Source of the DNA: a virus
Direction: 5' to 3' (one strand)
Length of the DNA stretch: 64,000 nucleotides
IMG/VR virus record: IMGVR_UViG_3300045988_143823
Each line of letters opens with the position of its first letter. Positions within the stretch are counted from its first letter, which is position 1. The notes beneath the pieces were generated by a model that saw nothing but the letters and a program-made list of their open reading frames with translations, had not been told where the DNA came from and did not search any database. Of the stretch, positions 1-22,301 are shown piece by piece. The position numbers were made by a program, and so were the translations under genes.

Positions 1-10
1 ATTAATATTG

Positions 11-50
11 ACCTGAGGCGAACTCAAATCCGCCTCAGGTTGATTTTTAT
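11..50 (+). terminator. Rho-independent terminator, hairpin cctgaggcg..cgcctcagg followed by a T-run
   Basis: Perfect 9-bp inverted repeat with a short loop and a downstream T-tract. Confidence 0.6.
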
Positions 51-68
51 CCATTTTTATGATATAAT
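36..68 (+). promoter_or_regulatory. SigA-like promoter TTGATT-N17-TATAAT
   Basis: -35 and -10 hexamers with a 17-nt spacer upstream of the first gene; the same architecture recurs at 8704, 16131 and 21409. Confidence 0.5.
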
Positions 69-98
69 ATTTATATAAGGAAATATTGAAAGGAGTGA

Positions 99-644
99 TT
101 GAAAATAGCACATAAAGTAAAATGTTTTTATTGTGGATAGATTTTCGATAGAGATAAATTTCCATATGTTCAAGTTGGAACTCGTCGTTATGCTCATCCT
201 CAATGTGCTGGTGTCACTTCTGAAGAAGAAATTGTTAAACCTCCAGAAGAGAATAAGGAAAAGGCTGAATTAGAACAATATATAATGAAATTACTTGGAG
301 AAAATTATATTAATCCTCGTGTGCGAAAACAATTAAATCAATATGTAGAGGAATACAATTATACTTATTCAGGTATGTTAAAAGCCCTTATATATTTTTA
401 TGAAGTTAAAGGAAATTCTGTCGAAAAAGCAAATGGTGGAGTTGGTATAATCCCTTGGATATATAAAGATGCTTATAATTATTACTATAACTTATGGATG
501 ATAAAACAAAGAAATGAAGATAAAAATATCTCATTATATGTTCCACAAGTTCAAGAAATAACTATACCAATACCTCAACGGAAACCCTACAAGAAAAATT
601 TATTTTCATTTTTAGACGAAGAGGAGGGTGTGAATGGCATCTAA
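99..644 (+). CDS. DnaD-like replication initiation/helicase-loader protein with an N-terminal CxxC...HPxC zinc finger; TTG start; one in-frame TAG at codon 14
   Basis: ORF track 285..644 extends upstream in-frame through a TAG at 138-140 to a TTG at 99 preceded by GAAAGGAG. The C-terminus carries an aromatic YxxxYxxxW-type motif typical of DnaD/DnaB_2 domains. It sits immediately upstream of dnaB. Confidence 0.45.
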
Positions 645-2166
645 ATATGTCGACCCAACTGCAATAATGCAAGTGATTGGGTGCGTTTATAATTCACCAC
701 AATTACTTGATTTTACTGATAAGTATTCAATAACCGAAGAAGATTTTCCAGACCCATTTCATAGAGTTGTGTTTGGAGCGATTTATAAAATTCATGAATT
801 AGGTGCTGAAAAGGTTACCTTAGAAAATATTAATGATTTTTTAGCCTCTCGTCCAAAATATCAAGGTATATATAAAGCAAATAAAGGCGAAGAATGGCTT
901 CTAAATATTACAGATACAGCGAAACCATTATCATTTGATTATTATTATAGTCGTTTAAAGAAAATGTCTCTATTAAGAGCATATGATAATTATGGTATAG
1001 ATGTATCATTTATTTATGACCCTGATAATATTTTAGATGTTGAGAAAAAACAATTACAAGAAGATAATTTAGATAATTCATCATTAGAAAATATTGCAAA
1101 ATTAGTTGATGATAGAATTGAAACGATTAAATATGAATATGTAAATAATATAGAGGGTGTAGCAGTTCAAGCCGGCCATGGAATTTTTGATTTGCTTGAT
1201 TCTCTAAAAGAACATCCAGAAATTGGTTCACCATTATATGGACCACTCGTGAATACAGTGACACGTGGAGCCAGACTAAAGAAATTTTATTTGCGTTCAG
1301 CCCCTTCTGGTATTGGAAAAACTCGTTCAATGATTGCCGATGCTTGTAATCTTGGATGTAATAAAATTTATGATGAAACATTTGGTTGGATTAAAAATGG
1401 TATTTGTGAACCAGTTTTATATATCACAACAGAGCAAGAAATTAGTGAAATTCAAACTATGATGTTAGCATTTCTATCAAATGTTAATGAAGAACATATT
1501 TTGAATACAAAATTATATGTTGGTGATGAAGAAGAGCGAGTATTAGAAGCTGGTAAAATTATTGCTTCTAGTCCCATTTACATTCGTGAATTACCTGATT
1601 TTTCTCTGATGGATGTTGAGAATGAAATTAAAAAAGGTATTCGTGACCATGAAGTAAAATATGTATTTCATGATTATATTCATACAAGTTTAAAAATTCT
1701 TGAAGAAATTACTCGTCGTAGTGGTGGTGTTAAATTACGCGAAGATAATATCTTATTTATGTTATCAACTAAATTAAAAGATATTTGTAATCAATATGGT
1801 GTATTTATTATGTCTGCTACTCAGTTAAATGGTGCATATCAAGATGCTGAAACACCAGACCAAAATCTATTACGAGGAGCAAAAGCCATCGCTGATAAAA
1901 TTGACTATGGTTCAATTTTATTACCAGTAAAAGATGATGATTTAGTAGCATTAAATGATATTTTGCAAACAAATATTTTTGAAATTCCAACAATAAAAAT
2001 GTCAGTCTATAAAAATAGACGTGGAAGATATAAAGGTGTATATTTGTGGTGCAAAGCAGATTTAGGAACTTGTAGAATTAAACCTATGTTTTGTACTACT
2101 TATGGATATGAGTTAGTTCCAATAGATGATATAAAAATTAATTTTGAAGAAGAAAGTGCGTTTTAA
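634..2166 (+). CDS. dnaB: DnaB-family replicative DNA helicase
   Basis: 510 aa, Walker A motif SAPSGIGKT, typical DnaB-like size and position before a primase; no TAG. Confidence 0.8.
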   Translation: MASKYVDPTAIMQVIGCVYNSPQLLDFTDKYSITEEDFPDPFHRVVFGAIYKIHELGAEKVTLENINDFLASRPKYQGIYKANKGEEWLLNITDTAKPLSFDYYYSRLKKMSLLRAYDNYGIDVSFIYDPDNILDVEKKQLQEDNLDNSSLENIAKLVDDRIETIKYEYVNNIEGVAVQAGHGIFDLLDSLKEHPEIGSPLYGPLVNTVTRGARLKKFYLRSAPSGIGKTRSMIADACNLGCNKIYDETFGWIKNGICEPVLYITTEQEISEIQTMMLAFLSNVNEEHILNTKLYVGDEEERVLEAGKIIASSPIYIRELPDFSLMDVENEIKKGIRDHEVKYVFHDYIHTSLKILEEITRRSGGVKLREDNILFMLSTKLKDICNQYGVFIMSATQLNGAYQDAETPDQNLLRGAKAIADKIDYGSILLPVKDDDLVALNDILQTNIFEIPTIKMSVYKNRRGRYKGVYLWCKADLGTCRIKPMFCTTYGYELVPIDDIKINFEEESAF

Positions 2167-2177
2167 GGAGAATAATT

Positions 2178-2342
2178 ATGGAAAAAGCTGGTCAGATTGA
2201 ATATAAAATGTCTAAGCGTCAAGCTACAGAGCTGATTAAAAATTACAAGGGGCCTCGTAAGAATCCACAGGATATTTTGATTGAATATGTAAATACTAAT
2301 CTAAATCTTCTGCGTAAATGCGTGAAAGTGATTGTTGATTAA
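2178..2342 (+). CDS. small hypothetical protein (54 aa)
   Basis: Strong RBS TAAGGAGAATAATT then ATG; stop overlaps the primase start. Confidence 0.45.
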   Translation: MEKAGQIEYKMSKRQATELIKNYKGPRKNPQDILIEYVNTNLNLLRKCVKVIVD

Positions 2343-3445
2343 TGATTGTATTCGACAAGTCAGAAATCCGGGAAAAACTTACTACCGATAATATTTATGA
2401 CTTGTTGTTAGAATGGGGAGGCGATCCTGAGTATAATGAAACTGGGATCGTCTCTTCAACTATTTGTCATAATATGCCTGGCGAAGGTAGTAAAAAACTT
2501 TACTATTATGAAAATACTGGATTGTTTAAATGTTATACCGGATGCGACGCCACATTTGATGTATTTGAATTATGCACGAAAGTAATGCGTATTCAACATG
2601 AGCGAGAATTTGATTTAAACTCAGCAGTTTTATGGGTAGCTCATCGTTTTGGTTTAGGTGGAACAATTCAAGAATTAGATGAAGCCAAAACTCTTGAAGA
2701 TTGGAAAATTTTTAATGAATATAGTCGTATTCAAAGTATTGAGAAGAAAACTAATCAAATAACATTAAAAACTTATGATGAAAAAATTTTAACAAGATTC
2801 AATTATAAAGTTCAATTAACACCTTGGTTAGATGAAGGTATCTCACAAGAAGCATTAAATGCTGCTAAAATTGGTTTTTATCCAGGAGGCGATCAGATAA
2901 CAATTCCACATTATGATATTGATGGACGGTTTATTGGTTTGCGCGGGCGATCATTATGTAAAGAAGAGTGTGAATTATATGGAAAATATCGACCTATTCA
3001 TTTAAATAATCAATGGTATAGCCATCCTCTTGGTATGAATTTATATAACTTAAATCTGAGTAAAAATGCTATAAAGACATTTAAAAAAGCAATAGTATTT
3101 GAAGGGGAAAAATCTGTTTTAAAGTATAAAACTTATTTTGGTCTTAATAATGATATATCTGTGGCCTGTTGCGGTAGTAATTTATCTAGTCATCAAGTTC
3201 AATTATTATTAGATTGTGGAGTTGAAGAAATTATTATTGCATTCGATAGACAGTTTAAAGAACTCGGTGATGATGAATTTAAACATCTTAAATTAAATTT
3301 ATTAAAAGCAAGAAGTAAATTTAAAAATTATGCTACAATATCATTTATGTTTGATAAAACAGGATTGCTTGGCTATAAGGATTCACCAATCGATGATGGT
3401 AAAGATATTTTCTTGAAATTATTTAAAGAAAGGATTATAATATAA
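2342..3445 (+). CDS. dnaG: DnaG-like DNA primase (zinc-binding CHC2 region plus TOPRIM EGEKS motif)
   Basis: Cys/His cluster CHNMPGEGS...CYTGCD near the N-terminus, TOPRIM-like VFEGEKSVLK; no TAG. Confidence 0.7.
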   Translation: MIVFDKSEIREKLTTDNIYDLLLEWGGDPEYNETGIVSSTICHNMPGEGSKKLYYYENTGLFKCYTGCDATFDVFELCTKVMRIQHEREFDLNSAVLWVAHRFGLGGTIQELDEAKTLEDWKIFNEYSRIQSIEKKTNQITLKTYDEKILTRFNYKVQLTPWLDEGISQEALNAAKIGFYPGGDQITIPHYDIDGRFIGLRGRSLCKEECELYGKYRPIHLNNQWYSHPLGMNLYNLNLSKNAIKTFKKAIVFEGEKSVLKYKTYFGLNNDISVACCGSNLSSHQVQLLLDCGVEEIIIAFDRQFKELGDDEFKHLKLNLLKARSKFKNYATISFMFDKTGLLGYKDSPIDDGKDIFLKLFKERIII

Positions 3446-3621
3446 TGAGCGAATTACATTGGAATAAATATAATGCAGCCGCAGATTTAGATCCATTCCC
3501 AGATATAAGATATCAATGTCCATTATGTTATAAAAGTTTTAAAGAAGAATATGATAAATGTCCCAACTGTGGAAAAGTAATAAAAGGAGAATCACAATAT
3601 GAAAGGTATCGTTTGGGGTAA
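3445..3621 (+). CDS. small zinc-ribbon protein (CPLC...CPNC)
   Basis: 58 aa with two CxxC pairs; start overlaps the primase stop (TAATG). Confidence 0.45.
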   Translation: MSELHWNKYNAAADLDPFPDIRYQCPLCYKSFKEEYDKCPNCGKVIKGESQYERYRLG

Positions 3622-3910
3622 TCGTTGGATTTCAGCAGTAAATAAATTAGATTAGATAGCACTAAAATATGAATATCTCCATATTAGCCCTATTCAAATA
3701 ATTAAAACTAAAAATGAATATACAATTACTTATGAAAATGGAGATAATTGGCGAGCTATACGAGGTAATACTAATAGTCGAGGATATAAATGTAATATTT
3801 CTTATATTGATCGTGAAATTACTGATGATATTGTTGATACTATTATTAAACCTTGTACCACTGATTTTCCTTATCATGGGTTTGAGTATTATTATCCAGA
3901 AAAGGACTGA
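3599..3910 (+). CDS. hypothetical protein, 103 aa, one in-frame TAG
   Basis: RBS AAAGGAGAATCACA then ATG; the frame translates to a non-low-complexity protein (MKGIVWGNRWISAVNKLD-TAG-IALKYEYLHISPIQ...PEKD) that the ORF track missed because of the TAG. Confidence 0.4.
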
Positions 3911-3982
3911 TATAAATAATAAATTTAATAAAAAAATTAAAATATATAGGTAGTGATTTAATGAAAGGAGGGTGACTATTCT

Positions 3983-5728
3983 ATGGAATACCGCCTAAGA
4001 GCACCCGAGTTCCCGATATATACACCGGTAGAACAAGTGCTAGTAAATCGTGGAATACCCTACGATTAGATTAATCATTATTTAAACACTACTGATAATG
4101 ACATTTTAGACCCTCGGTTAATACCGCACTTAGATGAAGGTGCTAAAATGCTTATTAAACATATTTCACAAAATGACAAAGTTCTGATATAGGTAGATAG
4201 TGATTGTGATGGATATACTTCTGCCGCATTACTAATGAATTACCTATATTGTCTATTTCCCAGTTTTGTGAATAATAACATTTCTTATCGTGTCCATATG
4301 GGAAAACAGCACGGCATCATTCCAGATACAATTCCGGAAGATATTAAATTAGTAATTGCTCCAGATTCAAGTTCAAATGATTATGAAGCACATGAATATT
4401 TAAATTTGAGTGGAGTTGACGTGCTGGTAATAGACCACCATGAAGCTGATCACATTTCTGAGTATGCTTGTATAATTAATAATTAGTTATGTGATTATCC
4501 CACTAAATCATTATCTGGTGTAGCAATGGTCTGGAAATTTTGTTGCTATATTGATATGTTATTAAAGACTGACCATGCGTAGAAGTTTTTAGATTTAGTG
4601 GCTCTTGGATTGGTGGCTGACATGATGGATGTGCGAGATTTTGAAACAAGAAGATTAATAGATAAAGGACTTCAACAAATCCGCAATCCTTACTTCAGAG
4701 GTGCGATTGATAAAGACCAATTTCATTTTACAAATGAGATTACACCTATTGGAGTAGCTTTTTATATTGCTCCATTAATTAACGCGACAACTCGCGTCGG
4801 AACGCAAGAAGAAAAGCTCATGCTATTTGAATCAATGCTTGATTTTCGGGGATACGAACTTGTCCCATCAACGAAACGTGGATGTAAAGGTCAAGCAGAG
4901 ACGAGAGTAGAACAAGCTTGTCGAAATTGTACCAATATTAAAAGTAGACAAACCAAAATTCGAGACAATAGCTTGGAAAGAATTGAATAGATAATCGTAA
5001 ATCAAAATTTATTGAGTAATAAAATCTTAATCGTTCAATTAGATGATTTGATTACTGACCGCAACCTAACTGGATTAATAGCAAATCAATTAATGAGTGA
5101 ATATCAAAGACCTGTTTTAATCTTAAATAAAATTGAAAATGAAGATGGTACAATAACTTGGGAAGGGTCTGGTAGAGGATACGACAAATCTCGATTGAAA
5201 GATTTTAGAGGATTTTTAGAAAATAATAAATACGTTATGTATGCTGAAGGTCATGCTAATGCATTTGGTATTGGCATTAAAGATGAAGATATTAGCGCAT
5301 TTATTGCATCTACAAATTCTGCTCTAGATGGTTTTGATTTCACCCCAATCTATAATGTAGATTTTATCTACAAATCAGATGAGCTGACTCCTGATGAAGT
5401 TATTGACATCGCAGGAATGAAAAGCTTATGGGGCCAAGGAGTAGAAGAAGCTGAAATTGCTGTAGAAGGTATTAAAGTCCACAAGGACAATATACGTATT
5501 CTATCGCCAGATAAAAATCCTACTCTAAAGATAATGTTGCCTAACGGCATCAATTTTATGAAGTTTAGGTCGTCTGAAGAGGAATATGATAAACTATATT
5601 CTGAATTAGGTTATGTGACAATTAATATCGTTGGTGAATGCGAACGAAATATTTGGAATAATAAAATTAGTCCTCAAGTTATGATTAAAGATTACGAAAT
5701 TGTAGATAGGGCAAATTATTATTTTTAA
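3983..5728 (+). CDS. recJ: RecJ-like single-strand DNA exonuclease (DHH/DHHA1), 5 in-frame TAG codons
   Basis: RBS AAAGGAGGGTG. Contiguous in-frame translation gives DHH motif I (VDSDCDGYTSAALL), motif III (DHHEADH), and the LDLVALGLVAD motif. The three ORF-track fragments (4235, 4598, 5012) are all in the same frame and separated only by TAG. Confidence 0.85.
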
Positions 5729-5781
5729 TAATTGACACTTACGACTAATAGACCAAAAACCTATTAGGAGGAATTACAATT

Positions 5782-6612
5782 ATGAAAAATACTATTTTGA
5801 ATAAATGGCTGATTGCATTAAGCTGTGTATTAATTATTGGATGCAGCGTTAAAATCGTTGAAGCGTCAGCTATTACTCGAAATGCACTTTCGGAAGCTTA
5901 CATCCCTTCTGAAATGTCTTCTGTGGTAGATCTTACTACTACTATTGAGTATAAACAAATTAGAAATATATCTAAAACAGAAGATACACAAGAATTAAGA
6001 ACACTAATCCAAGAGTGTAAAACATTAAAAGAATCCGCTGAACAAATGCTAGTATTGGCTGATAATTTAGGATACACTGATAAACATCCAGTAGTTAAGA
6101 CAACAATTGCTGAAATTGAACAATTAAATAAATTGATTACAATTTATGAAAATCGGTTAGAACAAAAATGTTGGGAAATTCGAATTGAGAAATATCCAAC
6201 TGCTTCTAGTATTTGGCTATATTTAAGCGATCAAGGATATAGCGATGAAATATGCGCGGGTATCCTTGGCAATATAATGGCTGAGGTTGGTGGGCATACT
6301 TTAGATATTGAACATACTACCAATACTCATCCAGGATATTATGGCATATGTCAATGGAGTTTAAAATATAGTAATACTAAAGGTATGAATTTATCTGAAC
6401 AATGTCAATATTTAGTTGAAACTATTGAAAATGAATTTAATTCATTTGGTAGTGAATATAAATCAGGATTTGATTATGATGATTTTATTGAAATGACTGA
6501 TATTGAAGAAATTGCTTTAGCATTTGCTAAATGTTATGAACGCTGTGGATCAGGTTCTTATGATGTGAGACAATCAAATGCTTTAATCGCTTTTGAATAT
6601 TTTGCATCTTAA
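5782..6612 (+). CDS. predicted lipoprotein with a C-terminal phage-tail-lysozyme-like domain
   Basis: Signal peptide with lipobox LIIGC; motif GILGNIMAEVGG...GYYGICQWS resembles the tail-lysozyme family signature. Confidence 0.5.
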   Translation: MKNTILNKWLIALSCVLIIGCSVKIVEASAITRNALSEAYIPSEMSSVVDLTTTIEYKQIRNISKTEDTQELRTLIQECKTLKESAEQMLVLADNLGYTDKHPVVKTTIAEIEQLNKLITIYENRLEQKCWEIRIEKYPTASSIWLYLSDQGYSDEICAGILGNIMAEVGGHTLDIEHTTNTHPGYYGICQWSLKYSNTKGMNLSEQCQYLVETIENEFNSFGSEYKSGFDYDDFIEMTDIEEIALAFAKCYERCGSGSYDVRQSNALIAFEYFAS

Positions 6613-6676
6613 TTATATATGGTTATATGGAGAGGTATTTCTCCATATAACCCTTATTTTCATTTATGGAGATAAT

Positions 6677-6880
6677 ATGACAGAATTTAAATCAGCTTGG
6701 GATATCGCTCAAGACTTACATAATTTACTATATAATACAGAAAAATCTGATAATGAGATATATAATGAAGTATTTGAAATTAGTAAAATTTTCGCAAAGA
6801 CATTCCTTACAACACCAGAAGATTTCGCTCGGTCGTTTATGGCTCTAAGAACCGAAATCCAAAATGAAAAAGTGATTTAA
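6677..6880 (+). CDS. small hypothetical protein
   Basis: Internal ATG with GGAG RBS; the upstream part of the ORF-track entry looks non-coding. Confidence 0.35.
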   Translation: MTEFKSAWDIAQDLHNLLYNTEKSDNEIYNEVFEISKIFAKTFLTTPEDFARSFMALRTEIQNEKVI

Positions 6881-6908
6881 AAATTTTTATACCAAAATGG
6901 TGATATAA

Positions 6909-8105: not shown

Positions 8106-8710
8106 CAAAAATATTAACTATTGATTTTGATATATTAATGTGGGAATCATTGCCTCTATATAATAATTTAGTGCAATAGGATTGGAAAACTTTAACTGCT
8201 AATTTTAACTTATTAAATTATGTATAGTTTGATGGAGAACTATATAATCGTTTAACTCAAATGATTCTTAGACAGACAAAACATATTAAAAAAGAAAATG
8301 TGCATTTTATAACTTCACATCATCGAGTAATTAAATATCTTCCATTAAATGATCTTATTGAAATAACTAATATAGACCATCATCATGATATTCAATATAA
8401 TGAAATTGAACCAGAAAATGAATTAAATTGTGGTAATTGGATAAAATATGCTTATGAGCATGGATATGCAATTAATCAATATAATTGGATTCATAATGAT
8501 AATTCTATTTAGTGTCATTTAGATAAAAATAATTATTTATCTAAACAAGATACTATTGAAAATTTTGATTTAACAATGGAAGATTATGATATTATAATTA
8601 TTTGTTTGTCTCCACCCTGGGTGCCACCTAAGTACAGACCATTATATAATTGCTGGATTGATATGTTAAATCGGATTTATGATACAACATTTGTCGTAGA
8701 TGATTGATTT
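8102..8710 (+). CDS. hypothetical protein, about 202 aa, 3 in-frame TAG codons
   Basis: ATG overlaps the helicase TGA (ATGA); the continuous frame includes ORF 8261..8512 and ends at a TGA. Confidence 0.4.
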
Positions 8711-8732
8711 ATAATAAATTATATAGTATAAT
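8704..8732 (+). promoter_or_regulatory. SigA-like promoter TTGATT-N17-TATAAT upstream of the polymerase gene
   Basis: Consensus hexamers with a 17-nt spacer about 40 nt upstream of the 8770 start. Confidence 0.5.
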
Positions 8733-13380: not shown

Positions 13381-13391
13381 GGAGGTTATAA

Positions 13392-15662: not shown

Positions 15663-16153
15663 GATACGCAGGAATAATTAAAAATGATATTGCTGGAGCT
15701 CCTGGAGTGTGTGTCTCATTTTTCACTCAAGGATGTGCCAGACATTGTGAGGGCTGTTAGAATCCAGAAACTTGGGATTTTAACGGCGGAAAAGAATTTA
15801 CCACAGATACATTAGATGATATAGTAAATGCTCTTACTGCTAATGGTATACATCGTGATTTTTGTATTATGGGTGGAGAGCCCCTTGCTCCAGAAAATCT
15901 ATTCCTTGTAAATTTAATTATTGAACATATTAAAGAAGCTCTTCCCAAAACAAAAATTTTTTTATGGACTGGATATACAATGGATGAATTGGCTATGCGC
16001 AGAGAGCCACATCTAAAAAATATTGTTGATAATATTGATTGTATTATTGATGGCCCATTTAAAATTGAACAACGAGATATTACCTTACCTATGCGTGGCT
16101 CACGCAATCAAAAAGTTTATTACGCTCCATTTGACTTATGGGAAAAAATATGA
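15659..16153 (+). CDS. nrdG: anaerobic RNR activating protein NrdG (radical SAM), one in-frame TAG directly after the CxxxCxxC motif
   Basis: ATG overlaps the nrdD TGA; motif GCARHCEGC-TAG-NPETW matches the NrdG signature GC..C.GC[HYQ]N..TW. Confidence 0.85.
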
Positions 16154-16159
16154 TATAAT
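16131..16159 (+). promoter_or_regulatory. SigA-like promoter TTGACT-N17-TATAAT (extended -10 TGATATAAT) inside the 3' end of nrdG
   Basis: Consensus elements about 25 nt upstream of the 16181 start. Confidence 0.45.
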
Positions 16160-16180
16160 ATAGAAAATGGAGGATAATAA

Positions 16181-16726
16181 ATGACTAATGGATTAAAATG
16201 TATTGGTGTAAAAACCATTGATGAATTAAAATATTCTCCTCAAGTATTTGAAGATGGGGCAATAGCATATACTGATGATAAAAAAGTATATTGTTATGTA
16301 AATAATAAATGGGAAGAAGTATCAGACTATGGTACTGTTGATAAAATTGATGATACTAAAGCTAATTTAAACTTAAATTTATATGATTTAAATAAATCTT
16401 TAGTGCGTTCATTACCCGATCCCGATACAGATACATTAGGAGATTATCAACAAAAAATTAATAGTTATCATCGAAAAATAAATAATAATTATTATCTTAT
16501 GTTATGTAGAGATTATAATTATTATACTGTATTTCATTATGAACCAACAATTATTGCTGATTCATTTGGTAAATCTGTATTAGATTGTCTCGCTGATGTT
16601 GGCAAGATTAAAACATTAGACTGGAATGAAGAGCAAGGCGCAATTGAAATTTGGATGTCCATTGATGATAATATTTATATGTTCTATTTATTTGGATATG
16701 ATGCAGGGGTGGTGGATTTTTCGTGA
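16181..16726 (+). CDS. hypothetical protein
   Basis: ORF track entry with RBS GGAGGA; no recognisable motif. Confidence 0.4.
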   Translation: MTNGLKCIGVKTIDELKYSPQVFEDGAIAYTDDKKVYCYVNNKWEEVSDYGTVDKIDDTKANLNLNLYDLNKSLVRSLPDPDTDTLGDYQQKINSYHRKINNNYYLMLCRDYNYYTVFHYEPTIIADSFGKSVLDCLADVGKIKTLDWNEEQGAIEIWMSIDDNIYMFYLFGYDAGVVDFS

Positions 16727-17001
16727 ATCGTTTATTTTGTAGTTTACAACCATTTGATATGGTTCAACAAATTTATGCAGTAGATAATAATGGCAATATC
16801 ATAGATACATTTAGTTGTACGTTTGACGATATGATTGAAGCTGTTCCATCCTATTGCAAAAATAATAATATTAATGTAATTCATTTGTTAGGTATTACTG
16901 ATTACACATTTGAAATGAAACAAAGAATGATGGAATTTTGTAAAACTAATTATGCATATGAAAATTTAAATCTAATTATTGATTGTGGAGAAGGAAAATA
17001 A
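16723..17001 (+). CDS. hypothetical protein
   Basis: ORF track entry with a GTGA overlap on the previous gene. Confidence 0.35.
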   Translation: MNRLFCSLQPFDMVQQIYAVDNNGNIIDTFSCTFDDMIEAVPSYCKNNNINVIHLLGITDYTFEMKQRMMEFCKTNYAYENLNLIIDCGEGK

Positions 17002-17253
17002 TGGAATACCTAGTAAGTACAACTGAAGTATATAGAGTTGATGATGAAGCCAGTGCCACTTCTCTAATTGAGAAGGCTAAGCATGACAGTATGTATGAAT
17101 TGGCTAAATATAGTTCTGTAAAGAAGGAAAAGAAATAGAAGGGTGAGATTATTGATGAATGGTATCAAGTATCCTTGACCAAAAAATTCAATGATGAAAA
17201 AGACCCTATTTCTATCGTTAATATTAAATATGGGGAGCAAATTGATTTCTAAT
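17002..17253 (+). CDS. hypothetical protein, one in-frame TAG
   Basis: ATG adjacent to the previous TAA; the frame continues through a TAG to a TAA overlapping the dut start. Confidence 0.3.
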
Positions 17254-17809
17254 GATTAAATTTGAAAAAGTTTCTAAATACCCTGATGCAGTAATTCCCA
17301 CTCGTAGTACAGTGAATTCCGCAGGATACGATTTTACTGTAGCTGAAGATATTGTAATCCCATCTTATTCTAATCAAATGAGCGAAATGGTCCGATGGGG
17401 TAGAATAGGCCATACTTATACTCTAACTGAGATGGCAAATTTTACAAAAGAATTAAAAATAAAACCTACTCTTGTTCCTACTGGAATTAAATGTAGTCTT
17501 GGCCGCGATACATACCTTGAATTGTCTGTCCGTAGTTCTACTCCACTAAAGCATTGGATTATTCTGGCTAATGGAGTAGGAATTATTGATGCTGATTATT
17601 ATAACAATCCTGACAATGAAGGACATATTTATTTTCAAGTAATTAATCTTACTCCATATGATATTCAACTTAAAAAGGGAGATAAAATTGGTCAAGGTAT
17701 TATCAAGCCATATCTAATGACAATTGATGATAATGCTTTTGGTCAACGACTTGGTGGATTTGGCTCTACTACAAGTAGTCCAGAAGCCAATCAAGCTAGT
17801 CTAACTTAA
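17252..17809 (+). CDS. dut: dUTP diphosphatase
   Basis: dUTPase motifs SAGYDF, GVGIIDADYY and C-terminal RLGGFGSTTS. Confidence 0.85.
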   Translation: MIKFEKVSKYPDAVIPTRSTVNSAGYDFTVAEDIVIPSYSNQMSEMVRWGRIGHTYTLTEMANFTKELKIKPTLVPTGIKCSLGRDTYLELSVRSSTPLKHWIILANGVGIIDADYYNNPDNEGHIYFQVINLTPYDIQLKKGDKIGQGIIKPYLMTIDDNAFGQRLGGFGSTTSSPEANQASLT

Positions 17810-18318
17810 TGAATATATTATTTTTAGATTTATCATCTAAATCTACTGGATGGTGCTTATCTTCTGAAAAAGGGGAAATGCTCAAATGGGGATTAATTCC
17901 TATTTCAGGAGATAATACTCTTGAACGTATTAAACAAATGACTGATAAAATTGTAGATTTGATAAAAGAAAATAGTGTTGGTAAAATAGTCGCAGAAGAT
18001 GTGCATCCAGAAGCATATGGAAATAAATCTCATACTGAACGTGTTTTAATGTGGCTTCAAGGGTCTGTGGCATTAGGTGCTCATAGTATTGATACTAGCA
18101 TTGATTACGATTTTATTGAATTTATGAATTCATCATCATGGCGAAAATTACTTGGAATGAAACTTGGTCCAAAAGTAAAACGAGTAGCACTTAAACAAGC
18201 AGATATTGAGTTTGTAAAAAATAAATATGGTATAGTGGCTAATGATGATGTATGCGATGCTATATGTTTATACACTGCATATTTCACTAAATCTCAAGAG
18301 GAGTATAATTGGGAATAA
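17809..18318 (+). CDS. RuvC-family Holliday junction resolvase (phage type)
   Basis: N-terminal ILFLDLSSKSTGW resembles the RuvC GIDPG motif; C-terminal DDVCDAICL carries acidic catalytic residues. Confidence 0.6.
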   Translation: MNILFLDLSSKSTGWCLSSEKGEMLKWGLIPISGDNTLERIKQMTDKIVDLIKENSVGKIVAEDVHPEAYGNKSHTERVLMWLQGSVALGAHSIDTSIDYDFIEFMNSSSWRKLLGMKLGPKVKRVALKQADIEFVKNKYGIVANDDVCDAICLYTAYFTKSQEEYNWE

Positions 18319-18396
18319 GGCCAAAATACAAAAAAAAATAACTCCTTATTTGTAAGAACAAATGGATAGAGATTCTTACGGAAAGGAGTTTTTTAA

Positions 18397-18891
18397 ATGC
18401 TTGATTTTATCGCCAAATATTGGCTTGAGTTTTTATTTGGTATAATCGCATTAGGACTTACGGGTTTAGCTAAATATTTTTATAATTTATATAAAAAAGA
18501 AAAATAGCGTTTAGAAGATGAAGCTCATGAAAAAATTATTAAAGAATTAAAAAGTAAAATTAGTGATGAGCATAAAACTACAGCTAATTTATTGCAAACT
18601 GAGCGAAATTTATCTAAACAAGAAAATGATAGTTTAAAACAAGAAATTTATAATGTAAATGATAAAATAGATGTTGTAAGAGATGGCATTTTATCTATTT
18701 AGGGAAAACAATTTAAAAATGATTGTCGAAAATTATTAAATCCAGATCATGAAATCACTCTCGATGAATTTGAAGAAATTGAGAGCGACCATGAGACATA
18801 TAATAAAATGAATGGAAATCACCCGGGAGACAAACTATTCCAAATGGTAGAATAGAAATTTAGAAATAGTTTATCTACTTATAAAGAATAA
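18397..18891 (+). CDS. membrane/coiled-coil protein (one N-terminal TM helix), 3 in-frame TAG codons
   Basis: RBS AAGGAG; hydrophobic segment WLEFLFGIIALGLTGLA then charged coiled-coil region. Confidence 0.35.
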
Positions 18892-18938: not shown

Positions 18939-19460
18939 TTATTCTTCTATTTTATAATAATATTTTAAAAATTCAGGGCTAAAATCGTAAGCTAACCCTT
19001 CTGTAATCAATCCTTCAATCTCACAAATTTCTGCGGAAACATTTTTAATTAATTTTTTAGCTATTTTTAACTCATGGAATGCCATATTTTCTTTGAAGTG
19101 CATTGCGGCTTCTTTATAGATGCTCAATGTTTCCTTCTCCCAATCGAGCCAATGGTAGAGACTCTCTTTACTTAATGATTTAATAGCTCCCTTGGTAACA
19201 TCCATAGATGTTTTGCTATACCATTCTGCTGGAATTAATGTTGTATTTTCCATTTCAAATTGTGGAATTGAAAAATATATTTTTGCATAACAATCTTTAA
19301 TACATTGAAGAGTTTCTAATTCTTCCTAAGATTGATGGCAATGGATTTCTTTTAAACCATCTAAACATAAAAAACGGTAATAGTCAGTCATATTTTCATG
19401 ATAAACTACTCCCTCTGTTTGGCGTTTAATTATAGAAATCATATATTCTTGACAATCCAT
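18939..19460 (-). CDS. hypothetical protein, about 173 aa, one in-frame TAG
   Basis: ORF 18939..19253 extends upstream through a TAG at 19326 to an ATG at 19458-60. Confidence 0.35.
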
Positions 19461-19465
19461 TCAAC

Positions 19466-19888
19466 TCACCCGACCTTTATAATATCGACTTCAACAGTTG
19501 AATAGGTTGTTGCACCAGTGTTAACAAATGTCAAATTGGCATTGTTATTTATAGAACGACATGATGGTAGAACTTTTACTAATGTAGTAAAATGAACTGT
19601 ACCAGTGTCAACTAGACTTGCAATTGCGGTTGGAATGGCAGTTCCATTATTGTAAGCCTAGACTGAAAATGTGTTGCCAGAGCCAGCATCACCAGTTGCA
19701 GTTACTGCAACTAAATAAGTGCCGGTTCGAGTTAAACTAATCGCAGGACTGCCTGCGATATGAGAAATACCACAACCACTTTGGAATATATTATTCTGGA
19801 GTGGAATAGGATTACCCGTAGCAAGAGTCTAGCTAGTTGTAGAGGTAGTCGTTAGAATTGGATTAGAGCAATTTGAACAAGTACTCAT
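19466..19888 (-). CDS. small Cys-rich protein with a BclA/C1q-like (TNF-fold) C-terminal domain, 2 in-frame TAG codons
   Basis: RBS AAAGGAG; MSTCSNCSNP... then TGTYLVAVTATG...YNNGTAIP...STVEVDIIKVG, pattern-wise similar to exosporium BclA C-terminal domains. Confidence 0.35.
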
Positions 19889-19917
19889 TCGTATGAACTC
19901 CTTTCTTAGTTAGAATA

Positions 19918-19939
19918 GAGGGAGGATATTTCCTCCCTC
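19918..19939. terminator. hairpin terminator GAGGGAGGA-tattt-CCTCCCTC
   Basis: GC-rich stem immediately after the TAA of gene 19946..20623. Confidence 0.6.
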
Positions 19940-19945
19940 AATAAA

Positions 19946-20623
19946 TTAATTACCGCAAGCTCCGCATCCACTAAATGCGCTATAAATATTACTTGCAGTA
20001 TAAGGACTACAAGTAATATATGCAGGAGTAGGATATGGGCGTAAGACATTTAATAAATCAGAAGTCTGATTCATGTTCTGAATTGTTAAGTTGGCAGACT
20101 GTAATTCAGTACGCAGACCTTCAATCTTATCGGTAGTTAAATAATCAAGAATACGCTGAACACCAGCATTTTGATTATTTAAAATATCACGAGTATTTAA
20201 GTTGCTAGTATTTACAATATCGCAAATATTTTTAGCATTCTCATATCTCACAGCGTCAATATTGCGATTAGTTGTGCAACAACATTCTTGCTGGGCGAAA
20301 CGATTATCGTTTAACCCTTTCATTACTTCATATTGGATATTACCCCAACGGTTAGTAGCATCACGTTCAAATGCGCTTACTTCGGTAAGGATCATATCTT
20401 GATTGCGGAACATATCTTGACGACCTAAGCCATCGGCCAATTCAGCGCGAGTTAAAGCGCCTTGAGTAGAACCGCCACCAAATAATCCGCCGCCCCCCCA
20501 AGCCAGTAGGAAGAATAAGAAGAATACCCAAGTCCAAGTGCCGCCAAAACTATTATTGTTATTGTCGCCTTGAGTCATTGCCATGATATCAGCAGGAGAT
20601 AATCCGTTTTCAGTGAGAGCCAT
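19946..20623 (-). CDS. membrane protein with a Gly-rich TM segment and a Cys-rich C-terminus (CCC...GCGACGN); no TAG
   Basis: ORF track entry; RBS GAAAGGAATG; one hydrophobic helix WTWVFFLFFLLAW. Confidence 0.45.
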   Translation of the reverse strand: MALTENGLSPADIMAMTQGDNNNNSFGGTWTWVFFLFFLLAWGGGGLFGGGSTQGALTRAELADGLGRQDMFRNQDMILTEVSAFERDATNRWGNIQYEVMKGLNDNRFAQQECCCTTNRNIDAVRYENAKNICDIVNTSNLNTRDILNNQNAGVQRILDYLTTDKIEGLRTELQSANLTIQNMNQTSDLLNVLRPYPTPAYITCSPYTASNIYSAFSGCGACGN

Positions 20624-20787
20624 AATTTTTACATTCCTTTCTAATTATATTGAGATTGGAAGATAGAATAAGCTTCATCAAAATTGATTCCCTTTTCTCG
20701 GCAGATATTGCGTGCAATTTGAATAATCTCTGCTTCTGATTTTCCTTAAGCCATTCTTTGTGCCTATTGGAATAAGGGATTAGAATT

Positions 20788-21220
20788 TAAATTCTGTAGC
20801 ATCGCCATTGGGTTCATCATTTGGTTTGGATTCATCTGCGTTAGCTCCTTTCAGTTTATTAATTTCATTAACTAGAATTGTGACTGTTTTCTCGAATTCT
20901 TCTTTGCTTACATAAGAAGCGTCAGATGGTGTTGCTTCTGGCTATGTTGTTGGAGGAGGAGTAGCTTTTAATTCATACATATTTAATGAAGCTGTTCCAT
21001 CTAAATTGATTTGTTTTGTGTAGATACGTCGATTTGCTAGGTCTGGAAAATAGAAAACCGACCCGTCAAAATCAATACCTGTTGCTCGGACTTCTTCAAG
21101 ACTAGAGACCGGCCGACCTTTTAATCCTTGAAGTTGTTGAGTATATTGGTTAGTAGGCATATAACGATTCAGGTAGGGATTTTGAGATTGAGGATAATAG
21201 TTATAACTGTTTGGATACAT
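20788..21220 (-). CDS. Q/N/Y/P-rich hypothetical protein (spore-coat-like composition), one in-frame TAG
   Basis: ORF 20942..21220 continues through a TAG to a TAA at 20788. Confidence 0.35.
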
Positions 21221-21243
21221 TTTCTAGAAAATACCTCGCTTTC

Positions 21244-21296
21244 CAAATTTTTTACAGCGGAGTAAAAAATTTTACAATGGTGTAAAAAATTTTACT
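21244..21296. promoter_or_regulatory. Operator-like repeats: GTAAAAAATTTTAC x2 (21262-75, 21282-95) plus an inverted partial copy (21244-58)
   Basis: Near-palindromic 14-mers spaced 20 bp apart in a divergent intergenic region. Confidence 0.4.
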
Positions 21297-21408
21297 AAGC
21301 TCCTCCATTATATAATGTAAATTAATGGACCAATTAATGATTTTTGCCTGGTTATTTTCGAAAAAACTATCTAGAATATTTTTTATATTAAATAGGAATT
21401 GACATTTA

Positions 21409-21437
21409 TTGACTTTTCCAAAAATTTATTTTATAAT
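21409..21437 (+). promoter_or_regulatory. Consensus SigA promoter TTGACT-N17-TATAAT (a second TTGACA lies 10 bp upstream)
   Basis: Perfect hexamers with a 17-nt spacer, about 30 nt upstream of the 21466 ATG. Confidence 0.55.
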
Positions 21438-21465
21438 ACAGAAAAATGGAAGAGGAGGAAAATTT

Positions 21466-21879
21466 ATGGATTGGCTAGAAATGCTACAACAAATTTTCAA
21501 TATTCTTATTGTCCCAGTACTAACAGCTGTCTCTTTATTCTTGGTTCGTTTTATTCAGTCTAAAACCAATGAATTGAAGGCTAAAACCAATGATGAAACT
21601 CTTCAAAAATATATGGACATGCTTAATAAAACAATTACTGATTGTGTATTAGCAACAAATCAAACATATGTTGAAAGTCTGAAGGGGCAAAATGCATTTG
21701 ATAAAAATGCTCAACTGGAAGCATTCAAAAAGACCTATAACGCTGTAATGGGTATTTTGACTGAAGATGCTAAAGAGTATCTTGAGGAAGCCCTCGGTGA
21801 TTTGAGTGGATATATTACCACTAAAATCGAGTCTGAGGTTAATACAAATAAGGCTCAACCTAAAAAGGCCGAAGAATAA
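21466..21879 (+). CDS. holin-like membrane protein (N-terminal TM then hydrophilic tail; LL-H-holin-like architecture)
   Basis: RBS GGAAGAGGAGG; start at the ATG at 21466 rather than the upstream track start; TM ILIVPVLTAVSLFLV. Confidence 0.35.
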   Translation: MDWLEMLQQIFNILIVPVLTAVSLFLVRFIQSKTNELKAKTNDETLQKYMDMLNKTITDCVLATNQTYVESLKGQNAFDKNAQLEAFKKTYNAVMGILTEDAKEYLEEALGDLSGYITTKIESEVNTNKAQPKKAEE

Positions 21880-22254
21880 TTGATCATCTGTTTGTGCGGG
21901 AGCACTAAATTCAAAGAGTCCTTCGAGAAATTAGGAGCAATCCTATCTCTCGAAGGACATATTGTTTTATCTCCTAAAGTATTTGCTCATGCAGATAATA
22001 TTGTATTATCATCGGACACAGAAACTAGATTATTAAATTCTAGTAAAAATAAAATTAATATGGCTGATGCCGTTTATTTTATTACTGGAGAAAATGAATA
22101 TATTGGAACAACTGGCTATCAAGAAATTTGTTATGCTAGAAAATTAAATAAACCTATTACCTATTTTTCTAATAAAAAAATTGATGAATATGGTTATAAT
22201 GTTATCCGATAGCATGTGAATAACGTGATGGAGCAAACAAAAAATGGCGATTAA
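21880..22254 (+). CDS. nucleoside 2-deoxyribosyltransferase-like protein; TTG start; one in-frame TAG at 22210
   Basis: Motifs LCGSTKF and GTTGYQEICYARKLNKPI resemble the NDT family; if TAG is sense, the frame ends at a TAA inside the terminator stem. Confidence 0.3.
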
Positions 22255-22290
22255 GAAAAAATTTGTACTATTTTCTTAATCGCCATTTTT
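22241..22290. terminator. bidirectional hairpin terminator (aatggcgattaagaaaa...ttttcttaatcgccatt)
   Basis: 17-bp stem flanked by A- and T-runs between convergent genes. Confidence 0.65.
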
Positions 22291-22301
22291 TTATTTATAA
22301 A

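What the first reader, a model, noticed from the sequence alone, without database searches (positions are those of the whole stretch)
1..22300. Uneven TAG usage: several core early genes are TAG-free, late genes are TAG-dense
DnaB (510 aa), primase (367), dUTPase and RuvC contain zero TAG, and PolIII alpha has 1 in 1317 codons. RecJ has 5 and the small helicase 3. Late fibre and baseplate genes carry about 0.5-2% TAG, with the 2422-codon gene the densest. This gradient is the pattern proposed for recoding used as a lytic-stage translational switch: late proteins can only be completed once a suppressor tRNA is expressed.
Basis: partly seen in the sequence, partly recalled or inferred. Interest (0 to 1): 0.65.

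Follow-up and report, generated by a model that had tools for sequence, protein, structure and literature searches.

The report
Uneven amber-codon use in recoded phage
This is part of a common ~198 kb human-gut phage that reads the stop codon TAG as glutamine; TAG is indeed scarce in its core replication genes and frequent in its giant tail genes, a known pattern, but the major capsid, major tail and holin genes also avoid TAG, so it is not a clean early/late switch.

Summary

TAG supplies 10% of Gln-type codons in the replication block and 34% in the late block (Fisher p=1e-11). TAG encodes Gln: it aligns to Gln 8.9-fold above background in standard-code relatives.

1. Depletion is gene-specific, not block-wide. 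DnaE and primase are TAG-poor in all 7 TAG-recoded lineages tested, while RecJ in the same operon is TAG-rich in all of them. RuvC's zero is chance.
2. NrdD, NrdG, DnaE, ligase and a GyrA-like gene each need one read-through, so suppression must already work during replication.
3. Outside the window, the capsid-like and tail-tube-like proteins almost never use the recoded codon, in six TAG-recoded lineages and three TGA-recoded loci. The putative holin (21409-21879) has 0 of 9.

The best reading is that TAG is a costly codon, removed where early or high-yield translation matters and tolerated in low-copy giant tail proteins.

No suppressor tRNA is in the window, and I could not find one in this lineage. 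A sister lineage has a tRNA(CUA) in a 20-tRNA array.

The phenomenon is already published; this is a new instance of it.

The parts
99..18891 (+). Replication and nucleotide-metabolism gene block (21 genes, all on the + strand). TAG supplies 22 of 213 Gln-type codons (10%).
   Evidence: Gene table; Pfam and PHROG annotation; statistics.
634..2166 (+). DnaB-like replicative helicase, 510 codons, 0 TAG in 13 Gln-type codons. Relatives carry 0-6 TAG.
   Evidence: PF03796/PF00772, phrog_19 E=2.7e-51; counts; relatives.
2342..3445 (+). DNA primase, 367 codons, 0 TAG in 11 Gln-type codons. TAG-poor in every lineage examined.
   Evidence: phrog_47 E=1.7e-35, weak Toprim hit.
3983..5728 (+). RecJ-like DHH exonuclease, 581 codons, 5 TAG in 21 Gln-type codons. 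TAG-rich in all 7 TAG-recoded lineages tested, although it lies between primase and DnaE.
   Evidence: PF01368 and PF17768; site turnover.
5782..6612 (+). Protein with a C-terminal Phage_lysozyme2 domain, 276 codons, 0 TAG in 11. TAG-free in all but one of the lineages with an ortholog (1 of 5 in L043).
   Evidence: PF18013 E=5.8e-16.
6909..8105 (+). RecD/PIF1-like SF1 helicase, 398 codons, 3 TAG in 17.
   Evidence: AAA_30, AAA_19, UvrD_C_2.
8770..12723 (+). DNA polymerase III alpha (DnaE), 1317 codons, 1 TAG (codon 1245) in 44 Gln-type codons. Relatives have 0-2 TAG in about 45, in every lineage.
   Evidence: phrog_405 E=6e-213; PHP and DNA_pol3_alpha in public gene calls.
12723..13319 (+). 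Guanylate-kinase-like protein, 198 codons, 2 TAG in 3.
   Evidence: PF00625 E=1.7e-19.
13392..16153 (+). Anaerobic ribonucleotide reductase NrdD (756 codons, 1 TAG at codon 219) and its activase NrdG (164 codons, 1 TAG in the Cys-cluster motif).
   Evidence: phrog_487 E=9e-141; Fer4_12 and Radical_SAM; aligned codons.
17252..18318 (+). dUTPase (0 TAG in 6) and RuvC-like resolvase (0 in 4). Both zeros are uninformative; RuvC orthologs carry about 3 TAG in 8.
   Evidence: PF00692, phrog_135, phrog_159.
18397..18891 (+). Small protein with an N-terminal transmembrane segment and a coiled coil, 164 codons, 3 TAG in 8 (1.83% of codons). Last gene of the + strand block.
   Evidence: Sequence; counts; no family assigned.
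18939..22254 (.). Mixed-strand junction region with six small genes. It includes a TAG-free membrane protein at 19946-20623(-), and a putative LL-H-type holin at 21409-21879(+) with 0 TAG in 9.
   Evidence: phrog_13712 'holin' E=3.6e-33; weak TIGR01673 hit; sequences; phrog_16490; counts; GC-skew turn near 22 kb.
22302..63998 (-). Late block of very large tail, fibre or baseplate-type genes; g29 (27646-28416) inside it is on the + strand. TAG supplies 166 of 494 Gln-type codons (34%). Usage is heterogeneous. g32 (30096-32030) has 1/19. g34 (32355-40517, 2720 codons) has 14/75. g39 to g41 have 41-56%. g42 (60480-63998) is the C-terminal part of a 2784-aa tape-measure-like protein.
   Evidence: weak tail-fibre PHROG hits only; full-length g42 homolog in L075.

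Best explanation
The window is about one third of a ~198 kb human-gut siphovirus-like phage. It is distantly related to phAss-1 and to large Firmicutes phages, and it reads TAG as glutamine.

In-frame TAG must be decoded by a suppressor tRNA(CUA), presumably in competition with the host's release factor 1. Read-through is therefore never free: it costs yield, and it depends on how much suppressor is present.

Codon usage reflects that cost. TAG has been removed by purifying selection from genes whose product is needed before or as suppression builds up, namely the replisome core (DnaE, primase and, in this lineage, DnaB). NrdD keeps only one TAG here but carries 4-6 in some relatives. TAG has also been removed from genes that must be translated in very large amounts or with precise timing. 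These are the major-capsid-like and major-tail-like proteins just outside the window, and the putative holin.

TAG is tolerated, and drifts towards the CAA/TAG mixture that A+T-biased mutation favours, in low-copy giant tail proteins and in accessory DNA-processing enzymes. Those enzymes are RecJ, the RecD-like helicase, a GIY-YIG endonuclease and, in relatives, RuvC.

*Shown:* the recoding, TAG=Gln, the uneven distribution, and its recurrence across lineages and across two different reassigned stop codons.

*Inferred:* competition with release factor, incomplete suppression, temporal classes, and selection as the cause.
For: **Recoding and codon identity**
- Coding coverage is 35.9 kb under code 11 and 59.8 kb with TAG as sense.
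- At 200 TAG sites aligned to standard-code relatives, 34% are Gln. That is 8.9-fold enrichment (P=7e-45), against 42% at ordinary CAA/CAG sites.
- TAG+CAA+CAG is constant across the two blocks.

**The gradient**
- TAG share is 10% versus 34% (p=1.3e-11).
- The late-block effect persists after controlling for the Leu TTR/CTR analog: odds ratio about 2.9, z=4.5.

**Depletion is TAG-specific in the replisome core**
- The core has a TAG share of 0.02 with ordinary codon usage (GC3 0.17, NAA share 0.86). Other replication genes have the same codon usage and a share of 0.18.
- DnaE plus primase differ from RecJ in each of 7 TAG-recoded lineages (p from 5e-3 to 3e-9).

**Depletion in abundant virion proteins**
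- The MCP-like, p310, MTP-like and p195a genes carry 0-3 recoded codons in 32-50. The other head and tail genes run at 19-44%.
- This holds in six TAG-recoded lineages (p from 5e-3 to 4e-8) and three TGA-recoded loci (0/9-10 versus 54-74%, p from 3e-5 to 5e-3).
- These genes have a distinct codon usage (GC3 0.28, NAA share 0.38). The same CAG preference is seen in standard-code relatives.
- A homolog at 87% identity is named major capsid protein in nr. The tail-tube candidate matches phrog_2729 'virion structural protein' at E=5e-53.

**Other points**
- The holin-like g26 has 0 TAG in 9.
- TAG positions turn over: only 1 of RecJ's 5 sites is shared beyond close clades.
- Sense TAG is followed by A at 44%, against 32-34% after control NNG codons (p=0.02-0.03). 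True stops are followed by T in 25 of 42 cases.
- Suppressor tRNA(CUA) genes exist in a sister lineage and in phAss-1.
Against: - No expression, proteomic or tRNA-abundance data exist for this phage. 'Early', 'late' and 'abundant' are inferred from gene function, gene order and codon usage.
- The suppressor tRNA of the window's own lineage was not found, so competition with RF1 is an assumption.
- DnaE and primase are not high-copy proteins. Their depletion needs the timing argument, while the depletion in MCP and MTP needs the yield argument. The model therefore has two free factors.
- The MCP assignment rests on gene position, an automated nr name and a precomputed Pfam family. The local Pfam and PDB sequence searches found nothing.
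- In crAss-like phages MCP genes do contain recoded stops (PMC7886860). Avoidance in abundant proteins is therefore not universal among recoded phages.
- Even the most TAG-dense late genes (share 0.41) lie below the Leu-analog 'neutral' expectation for the late block (0.63-0.68). That analog is imperfect.
Confidence: 0.6

Rival explanations
1. Lytic-stage translational switch, as the reader proposed (Ivanova 2014; Borges et al.). Early genes are written in standard code and are translated by the unmodified host machinery. A phage suppressor tRNA expressed later then licenses translation of TAG-containing structural and lysis genes. This prevents their premature expression and times lysis.
For: - The block-level gradient is strong: p=1.3e-11, with odds ratio 2.9 after the codon-usage control.
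- The replisome core is TAG-poor in all recoded lineages.
- In the putatively TGA-recoded relatives L009 and L037, every replication ortholog is TGA-free. In other TGA-recoded loci the g34 homolog has 12/31 and 20/35 TGA and the tape-measure-like protein 9/12 and 13/14.
- In phAss-1 the suppressor tRNAs sit in the replication/nucleotide block, just upstream of NrdD.
- Published proteomics on crAss-like phages fits the idea (PMC9523058).
- A within-operon version is attractive. The TAG-bearing 'early-block' genes are nucleases and recombination functions (RecJ, RecD-like helicase, GIY-YIG, RuvC in relatives) that may be wanted later.
Against: - 13 of 27 genes in 1-22300 contain TAG.
- NrdD, NrdG, DnaE, the GyrA-like gene and ligase each need read-through, so replication itself depends on suppression.
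- DnaB has 6 TAG in 13 in relative L015.
- The capsid-like and tail-tube-like late genes avoid the recoded codon in every lineage.
- The holin-like gene has 0 TAG in 9 here and 0-2 in most relatives. The lysis-timing version expects the opposite.
- TAG positions are not conserved and show no 5' bias in late genes (KS p=0.16).
Confidence: 0.2
2. No selection on TAG itself. The unevenness would be a by-product of mutation and history. TAG arises from CAG by C-to-T change under A+T pressure and accumulates fastest in fast-evolving genes such as tail fibres. Slowly evolving or recently acquired genes (DnaE, NrdD, MCP) would simply lag behind or keep the codon usage of a standard-code donor.
For: - TAG share correlates with the Leu TTR/(TTR+CTR) share (rho=0.60, p=5e-5) and negatively with GC3 and CAG share.
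- The Leu analog alone explains TAG about as well as block membership does (log-likelihood -496.8 versus -497.6).
- The upstream YorF and AAA_24 genes are CAG-rich and TAG-free, as foreign genes might be.
- The clade has switched codes repeatedly, so some lineages are recently recoded.
Against: - RecJ (75% identity to the 77% clade) and DnaE (76%) are equally conserved, yet differ 10-fold or more in TAG share in all 7 lineages.
- The poorly conserved g08 (44% identity) and g24 (26%) are TAG-free here.
- The portal is a conserved gene and has 9/27 TAG, 10/27 in L098/L105.
- TAG sites turn over within the clade, so there has been time to equilibrate.
- The replisome core has the same general codon usage as TAG-bearing neighbours.
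- The block effect survives the Leu control.
- The nearest DnaE outside the clade is only 39% identical, so there was no recent transfer.
Confidence: 0.15
3. Gene-calling artefact. The TAG-free genes would be real, and the 'TAG-dense genes' would be chains of separate short genes wrongly joined by reading through genuine TAG stops.
For: Under table 11 the late region does break into many ORFs of 150-530 aa.
Against: - Coverage rises to 93% only with TAG as sense.
- Standard-code relatives encode the same proteins as single uninterrupted ORFs, with Gln at the TAG positions.
- Public gene calls on the source contig already read through TAG.
Confidence: 0.02

Closest known systems
Stop-codon-recoded gut phages with code-15 late genes: crAss-like Beta/Delta/Zeta groups, Lak, and the Garnet/Amethyst/Topaz/Agate clades (Ivanova 2014; Yutin 2021, PMC7886860; Borges et al., bioRxiv 10.1101/2021.08.26.457843; Peters 2022, PMC9523058)
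   Same: - TAG is read as Gln.
- The genome has low G+C.
- Recoded codons are concentrated in structural genes and scarce in the replication machinery, whose use of the alternative code is described as 'variable'.
- Code changes occur at short phylogenetic distance, with standard, TAG and TGA relatives.
   Different: - This is a different phage lineage: a DnaE/DnaB/NrdD replication module and SPbeta/EF1-like head and tail genes, probably with a Firmicutes host.
- The capsid-like, tail-tube-like and holin-like genes avoid the recoded codon here. In crAss-like phages MCP, TerL and portal stops were used as the diagnostic of recoding, and lysis genes were reported as the most biased towards recoded codons.
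phAss-1 / proposed Phassvirus and its wider monophyletic group, 'Caudoviricetes code 15 clade' (Babkin et al. 2023, PMC10607447; OQ749652)
   Same: - Human-gut origin and TAG read as Gln.
- Shared DnaE (38% identity), capsid-like protein (50%), tail-tube-like protein (48%) and NrdD/NrdG.
- Many tRNAs, including a long-variable-arm tRNA(CUA) of the same family as the one in this phage's sister lineage.
   Different: - Only distantly related, with no nucleotide-level match.
- The genome is ~198 kb rather than 136 kb.
- Gene order differs: in phAss-1 NrdD lies upstream of DnaE with the suppressors directly before it. Here the matching gap is 72 bp and holds no tRNA.
Large Firmicutes siphoviruses with a DnaE-type polymerase: SPbeta-like phages, Enterococcus EF1/VRE9 (Schiekvirus-like), Lactococcus 949 group, Brevibacillus Sundance
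   Same: DnaE (39% identity), the YorF homolog, the capsid-like and virion structural proteins (39-41%) and very long tail genes are shared.
   Different: Nothing in these searches suggests those phages are recoded: the window DnaE query aligned to SPbeta-like and several Enterococcus records as a single uninterrupted piece. The window phage and several of its relatives have reassigned TAG or TGA.

Membership tests
Genetic code 15 (TAG to Gln) phage | Coding density rises sharply when TAG, and only TAG, is read as sense | tested here: met
   Coverage is 35.9 kb under code 11 and 59.8 kb with TAG as sense. TGA as sense gives 37.1 kb. As a fraction of the window, coverage is 0.56 versus 0.93.
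Genetic code 15 (TAG to Gln) phage | In-frame TAG aligns with glutamine in homologs that use the standard code | tested here: met
   68 of 200 TAG sites align to Q, an 8.9-fold enrichment (P=7e-45), and no other residue is enriched. The main codon partners of TAG are TAG, CAA and CAG.
Genetic code 15 (TAG to Gln) phage | The genome encodes a suppressor tRNA with anticodon CUA | tested here: inconclusive
   None is in the window (ARAGORN; Rfam; pattern) or in about 28 kb of flanks. One is present in the sister lineage and in phAss-1. Contigs of the window's own lineage were not hit by three tRNA patterns, and about 105 kb of the genome was not examined.
Recoding as a lytic-stage translational switch (Borges et al.) | Early and replication genes are translatable in standard code | tested here: not met
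   13 of 27 genes in 1-22300 contain TAG. These include RecJ (5), the helicase (3), NrdD, NrdG and DnaE (1 each). The upstream GyrA-like and ligase genes have 1 each. Only some core genes are TAG-free.
Recoding as a lytic-stage translational switch (Borges et al.) | Structural genes use the alternative code | tested here: inconclusive
   Met for the tail and fibre genes, the portal and most head and tail genes. Not met for the capsid-like, p310, tail-tube-like and p195a genes, in any lineage.
Recoding as a lytic-stage translational switch (Borges et al.) | Lysis genes are preferentially biased towards the recoded codon | tested here: not met
   The holin-like g26 has 0 TAG in 9, and its orthologs mostly 0-2. 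The lysozyme-domain g08 has 0 in 11 here, and only one TAG occurs among all its orthologs. The endolysin was not identified with certainty.
Recoding as a lytic-stage translational switch (Borges et al.) | The suppressor tRNA or code-change module is expressed after early genes and before late genes | not testable with these tools
   The suppressor was not located in this lineage, and no expression data exist.
phAss-1-related group of gut phages | Shared signature proteins and recoding within the monophyletic group described by Babkin et al. | tested here: inconclusive
   Homologs of DnaE, the capsid-like protein and the tail-tube-like protein are shared at 38-50% identity. No phylogeny was built. 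The phage is not a member of the proposed genus, since there is no nucleotide similarity.

The most novel reading that the evidence does not exclude
In this clade the density of the reassigned stop codon may act as a graded translational attenuator rather than an on/off timer.

Proteins needed in hundreds of copies (capsid, tail tube) or with exact timing (holin), and the replisome core, are kept free of it. Low-copy giant tail proteins are saturated with it.

The same partition has arisen independently with TAG and with TGA in sister lineages that also have standard-code relatives. That makes the clade a natural three-way experiment on why phages recode.
Probability: 0.35. Interest if true: 0.5.

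Novelty: new member of a known kind. Interest (0 to 1): 0.3.

Why it matters
Uneven use of a reassigned stop codon is the main evidence behind the idea that phages use code change to time their late genes. This window is a clear, statistically solid instance in a very common gut phage; its capsid-protein cluster is seen on at least 1000 public contigs.

It also shows the limits of the idea. Replication itself needs read-through. Abundant late proteins and the holin-like gene avoid the codon. The same gene-by-gene partition recurs with TAG and with TGA in sister lineages that sit next to standard-code relatives.

This does not overturn the published hypothesis. It suggests that translation cost, in both yield and timing, shapes the pattern rather than a simple switch.

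It also points to a compact set of related genomes on which the two ideas could be told apart. In practice, it is a reminder that such contigs must be annotated with code 15.

Tried and rejected
**Searches for close relatives**
- Megablast of 1-22300 against 50,697 phage records found no match.

**Suppressor tRNA hunt**
- ARAGORN on the window and on about 130 related loci.
- Rfam over the whole window: 0 hits.
- An anticodon-loop plus T-arm pattern in the window: 0 hits.
- Three pattern scans of IMG/VR built from the phAss-1 and sister-lineage suppressors. They hit five contigs of the 77% sister lineage but no contig of the window's own lineage.
- A synteny jump using a TAG-free 379-aa protein from the sister lineage's tRNA region found no homolog in the window's lineage.
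- A jump using a SPOR/NAGPA protein through the protein database landed in a different ~149 kb clade.
- Further anchors in that region turned out to be HNH-type and other homing endonucleases, so I dropped them.
- All 8 viral scans are used.

**Protein identification**
- Pfam and PDB sequence searches on the capsid-like and tail-tube-like proteins gave nothing. I did not run structure prediction, because the listed best homologs were all at least 86% identical, which is too shallow an alignment.
- PHROG scans of TAG-free fragments of the giant late genes gave almost nothing beyond weak tail-fibre hits. 'Fibre/baseplate' therefore remains a plausible label, not a demonstrated one.

**Ideas considered and rejected**
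- Dual TAG+TGA recoding in the sister lineage that has an ARAGORN 'tRNA(UCA)'. There is no specific coverage gain, and the call lies inside a long ORF.
- 5' clustering of TAG in late genes: the positions are uniform (KS p=0.16).
- Positional conservation of TAG codons: the sites turn over.
- Gene length as the driver: the longest genes are the most TAG-dense.

Full report
**What the window is**

The window has about 30% G+C and two long gene blocks that converge near 19-22 kb, where the GC skew changes sign.

Under the standard bacterial code the minus-strand half breaks into fragments. Reading TAG as sense raises the sequence covered by stop-free frames of at least 150 codons from 35.9 to 59.8 kb. 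TGA as sense gives only 37.1 kb, and TAA as sense 47.0 kb with no longer maximum ORF.

I curated 42 genes:
- a plus-strand replication and nucleotide-metabolism block at 99-18891;
- six small genes of mixed orientation at 18939-22254;
- a late block at 22302-63998, minus-strand except g29, with proteins of up to 2720 and 2424 residues.

Annotations of the replication block:

| Gene | Support |
|---|---|
| DnaB | phrog_19 |
| Primase | phrog_47 |
| RecJ | DHH plus RecJ_OB |
| Lysozyme-domain protein | Phage_lysozyme2 |
| RecD/PIF1-like helicase | AAA_30, AAA_19, UvrD_C_2 |
| DnaE | phrog_405 |
| Guanylate kinase-like | PF00625 |
| NrdD and NrdG | phrog_487; Fer4_12, Radical_SAM |
| dUTPase | PF00692, phrog_135 |
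| RuvC-like resolvase | phrog_159 |

The late genes give only weak tail-fibre hits.

The first 12 kb of the window are 100% identical to a 197,687-bp human-gut metagenome scaffold in ENA. The public gene calls on that scaffold already read through TAG.

No similar genome exists at nucleotide level among 50,697 deposited phages. The nearest annotated relatives by protein are SPbeta-like, Enterococcus EF1/VRE9-like and Lactococcus 949-like phages, and the published TAG-recoded gut phage phAss-1.

**Checking the observation**

Two small corrections apply:
- The big gene has 2424 codons. Its 41 TAGs are the largest count, but at 1.69% it is not the densest. g41 has 2.07% and g39 2.03%.
- Three late genes lie below the stated 0.5-2% range.

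TAG makes up 22 of 213 Gln-type codons in the replication block and 166 of 494 in the late block (Fisher p=1.3e-11). TAG+CAA+CAG per 1000 codons is the same in both, 34.7 and 36.3.

Usage is also heterogeneous within each block (p about 0.005 and 0.0004).

Taken singly, only DnaE (1/44) and NrdD (1/32) are strongly depleted, and DnaB and primase moderately. The zeros in dUTPase (6 Gln codons) and RuvC (4) carry no information.

**TAG encodes glutamine**

I used only relatives that keep the standard code. At 200 TAG positions, 34% align with Gln. That is 8.9-fold over background (P=7e-45), close to the 42% seen at ordinary CAA/CAG positions, and no other residue is enriched. Among all relatives the commonest partners of TAG are TAG, CAA and CAG.

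**Relatives show the depletion belongs to genes, not to a block**

I fetched the DnaE neighbourhood from 49 viral contigs at 40-99% DnaE identity.
- DnaE and primase are nearly TAG-free in every TAG-recoded lineage.
- RecJ lies between them in the same co-directional block and is TAG-rich in every one. The contrast is significant in each of seven lineages (p from 5e-3 to 3e-9).
- RuvC carries about 3 TAG in 8 Gln-type codons in relatives.
- DnaB reaches 6/13 in one lineage.
- Upstream of the window the module continues with RNase H, a GyrA-like gene (1 TAG), ligase (1), a GIY-YIG endonuclease (5/21), YorF and AAA_24 (both 0).

NrdD (codon 219), NrdG, DnaE (codon 1245), the GyrA-like gene and ligase each contain a TAG. 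Full-length replication enzymes therefore need read-through, so suppression cannot be confined to a late stage.

TAG positions are not conserved. Only one of RecJ's five sites is shared beyond the closest clades, and conserved Gln sites alternate among TAG, CAA and CAG.

**The late side is not uniform either**

Walking beyond the right end of the window in near-identical contigs showed the following.
- g42 is the end of a 2784-aa tape-measure-like protein with 61 TAG in 175.
- Upstream lie a portal (phrog_2739, 9/27) and further head and tail genes.
- A 368-aa protein sits in the capsid position. It matches phrog_4088, and a homolog at 87% identity seen on at least 1000 contigs is named major capsid protein in nr.
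- A 358-aa virion structural protein sits in the tail-tube position (phrog_2729, E=5e-53).

The last two, with two neighbours, have 1 TAG in 38 Gln-type codons. The surrounding genes have 108 in 278.

The same holds in six independent TAG-recoded lineages and, with TGA and Trp codons, in three TGA-recoded loci.

These genes have a distinct codon usage (GC3 0.28, NAA share 0.38, against 0.13-0.22 and 0.73-0.88 elsewhere). That is typical of heavily expressed genes. They show the same CAG preference in standard-code relatives.

Inside the window, g26 (21409-21879) matches a holin family (phrog_13712, E=3.6e-33). It has a single N-terminal membrane segment and 0 TAG in 9 Gln codons.

**Does general codon usage explain the gradient?**

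Partly. The synonymous Leu pair that differs by the same first-position C/T change shows a parallel block difference: TTR/CTR is 4.9 in the replication block and 15.6 in the late block. TAG share correlates with it across genes (rho=0.60).

In a binomial model the late-block effect falls from an odds ratio of 4.7 to 2.9 but stays significant (z=4.5).

The replisome core has ordinary codon usage yet a TAG share of 0.02, so its depletion is specific to TAG.

Sense TAGs are followed by A more often than control NNG codons are (44% versus 32-34%, p=0.02-0.03). True stops are followed by T in 25 of 42 cases. From general knowledge of amber suppression, this is the direction expected if contexts that favour read-through over termination are preferred. 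The effect is modest.

**The suppressor tRNA**

None is in the window by ARAGORN, Rfam or a direct pattern, and none is in about 28 kb of flanks.

In phAss-1 two tRNA(CUA) genes lie directly upstream of NrdD. The equivalent gap here is 72 bp.

Patterns built from those tRNAs found a conserved long-variable-arm tRNA(CUA) on 50 viral contigs. Five of them belong to the 77% sister lineage, where it sits next to tRNA-Tyr in an array of 20 tRNAs about 75 kb from DnaE.

No contig of the window's own lineage matched, and two synteny jumps failed. The suppressor of this genome therefore remains unlocated, with about 105 kb unexamined.

**Comparison with what is known**

The pattern is published:
- Structural and lysis genes recoded, with variable use in replication genes, and the lytic-switch hypothesis (Borges et al.).
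- Proteomic support in crAss-like phages (Peters 2022).
- TAG=Gln with tRNA-Sup-CTA in phAss-1 (Babkin 2023).

The clade here is itself a mosaic of standard-code, TAG-recoded and TGA-recoded relatives.

What differs from the published picture is that the capsid-like, tail-tube-like and holin-like genes are kept free of the recoded codon.

**Verdict**

The best-supported reading is that TAG is a costly codon. It has been removed where early or high-yield translation matters and tolerated elsewhere.

This is a new instance of a known phenomenon, of modest interest. The related lineages with three codes would be a useful system for testing switch against cost.

Noticed in passing
L056-L068 and L083-L105 (relatives of window 34515-36092 and of the tail-tube-like gene): Relatives at 50-70% protein identity use three different codes: standard, TAG as sense and TGA as sense. 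Open-frame coverage is 0.96-0.98 under code 11 in some. In others it rises from 0.25-0.78 to about 0.96 with TAG as sense. In a third group it rises from 0.56-0.77 to 0.93-0.97 with TGA as sense.
   Followed up: partly
window 21409-21879 (+): A putative LL-H-type holin (phrog_13712, E=3.6e-33) with one N-terminal membrane segment. It sits at the junction of the two blocks and has 0 TAG in 9 Gln codons. The likely start is the ATG at codon 20 of the ORF.
   Followed up: partly
window 5782-6612 (+): A protein with a Phage_lysozyme2 (tail lysozyme) domain sits inside the replication operon, between RecJ and the helicase. It is TAG-free here and in nearly all relatives, despite only about 44% identity between clades. 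Its role (endolysin, entry enzyme or other) is unknown.
   Followed up: no
L245 15957-16046; L177 9078-9167; L070 12442-12532: A conserved family of 90-nt tRNA(CUA) genes with a long variable arm is shared by phAss-1, the sister lineage and about 50 IMG/VR contigs. A class-II-like shape is unexpected for a Gln-inserting suppressor. In the sister lineage it lies about 570 bp from a 90-nt tRNA-Tyr(GUA).
   Followed up: partly
window 43380-47006 (g37), 40659-42302 (g35) and 28457-29350 (g30), compared with L050-L055: Contigs whose DnaE is 98-99% identical to the window carry tail genes that are only 34-56% identical to g37, g35 and g30. Receptor-binding genes are being swapped between otherwise near-identical phages, and the swapped alleles are just as TAG-dense.
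   Followed up: no
window 22302-22900 and 28457-29000 (C-termini of g28 and g30): The 1727-aa fibre-like protein and the 297-aa protein share a similar C-terminal domain of about 150 residues (...WNDYAE.RE...SDTFGF.IGET...TPIAV.GRVLAYPYE...). It may be a shared receptor-binding or chaperone-type module (sequences).
   Followed up: no
L071 4934-5902, 7268-8206 and 8358-9368 (just upstream of window position 1): A GIY-YIG endonuclease in the replication block is TAG-rich (5/21). Borges et al. reported the same for an intron endonuclease in TGA-recoded Agate phages. The adjacent YorF and AAA_24 genes are TAG-free and use mostly CAG (7 of 8 and 9 of 11 Gln codons), unlike the rest of the genome.
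   Followed up: no
L177 7726-7805 / L253 16911-16990: ARAGORN calls a tRNA with anticodon UCA in a TAG-recoded sister lineage. Reading TGA as sense gives no specific gain in coding coverage, and the call lies inside a long ORF, so it is probably a false positive.
   Followed up: yes
window 27646-28416 (+): A 256-codon ORF with 4 TAG lies on the opposite strand inside the otherwise minus-strand late block. It has no family match, and whether it is a real gene was not tested.
   Followed up: no
L245 13105-13965: In the sister lineage a SPOR plus NAGPA (phosphodiester glycosidase) domain protein, a candidate cell-wall enzyme, lies inside the tRNA array about 2 kb upstream of the suppressor tRNA. 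It has 2 TAG in 8 Gln-type codons.
   Followed up: no
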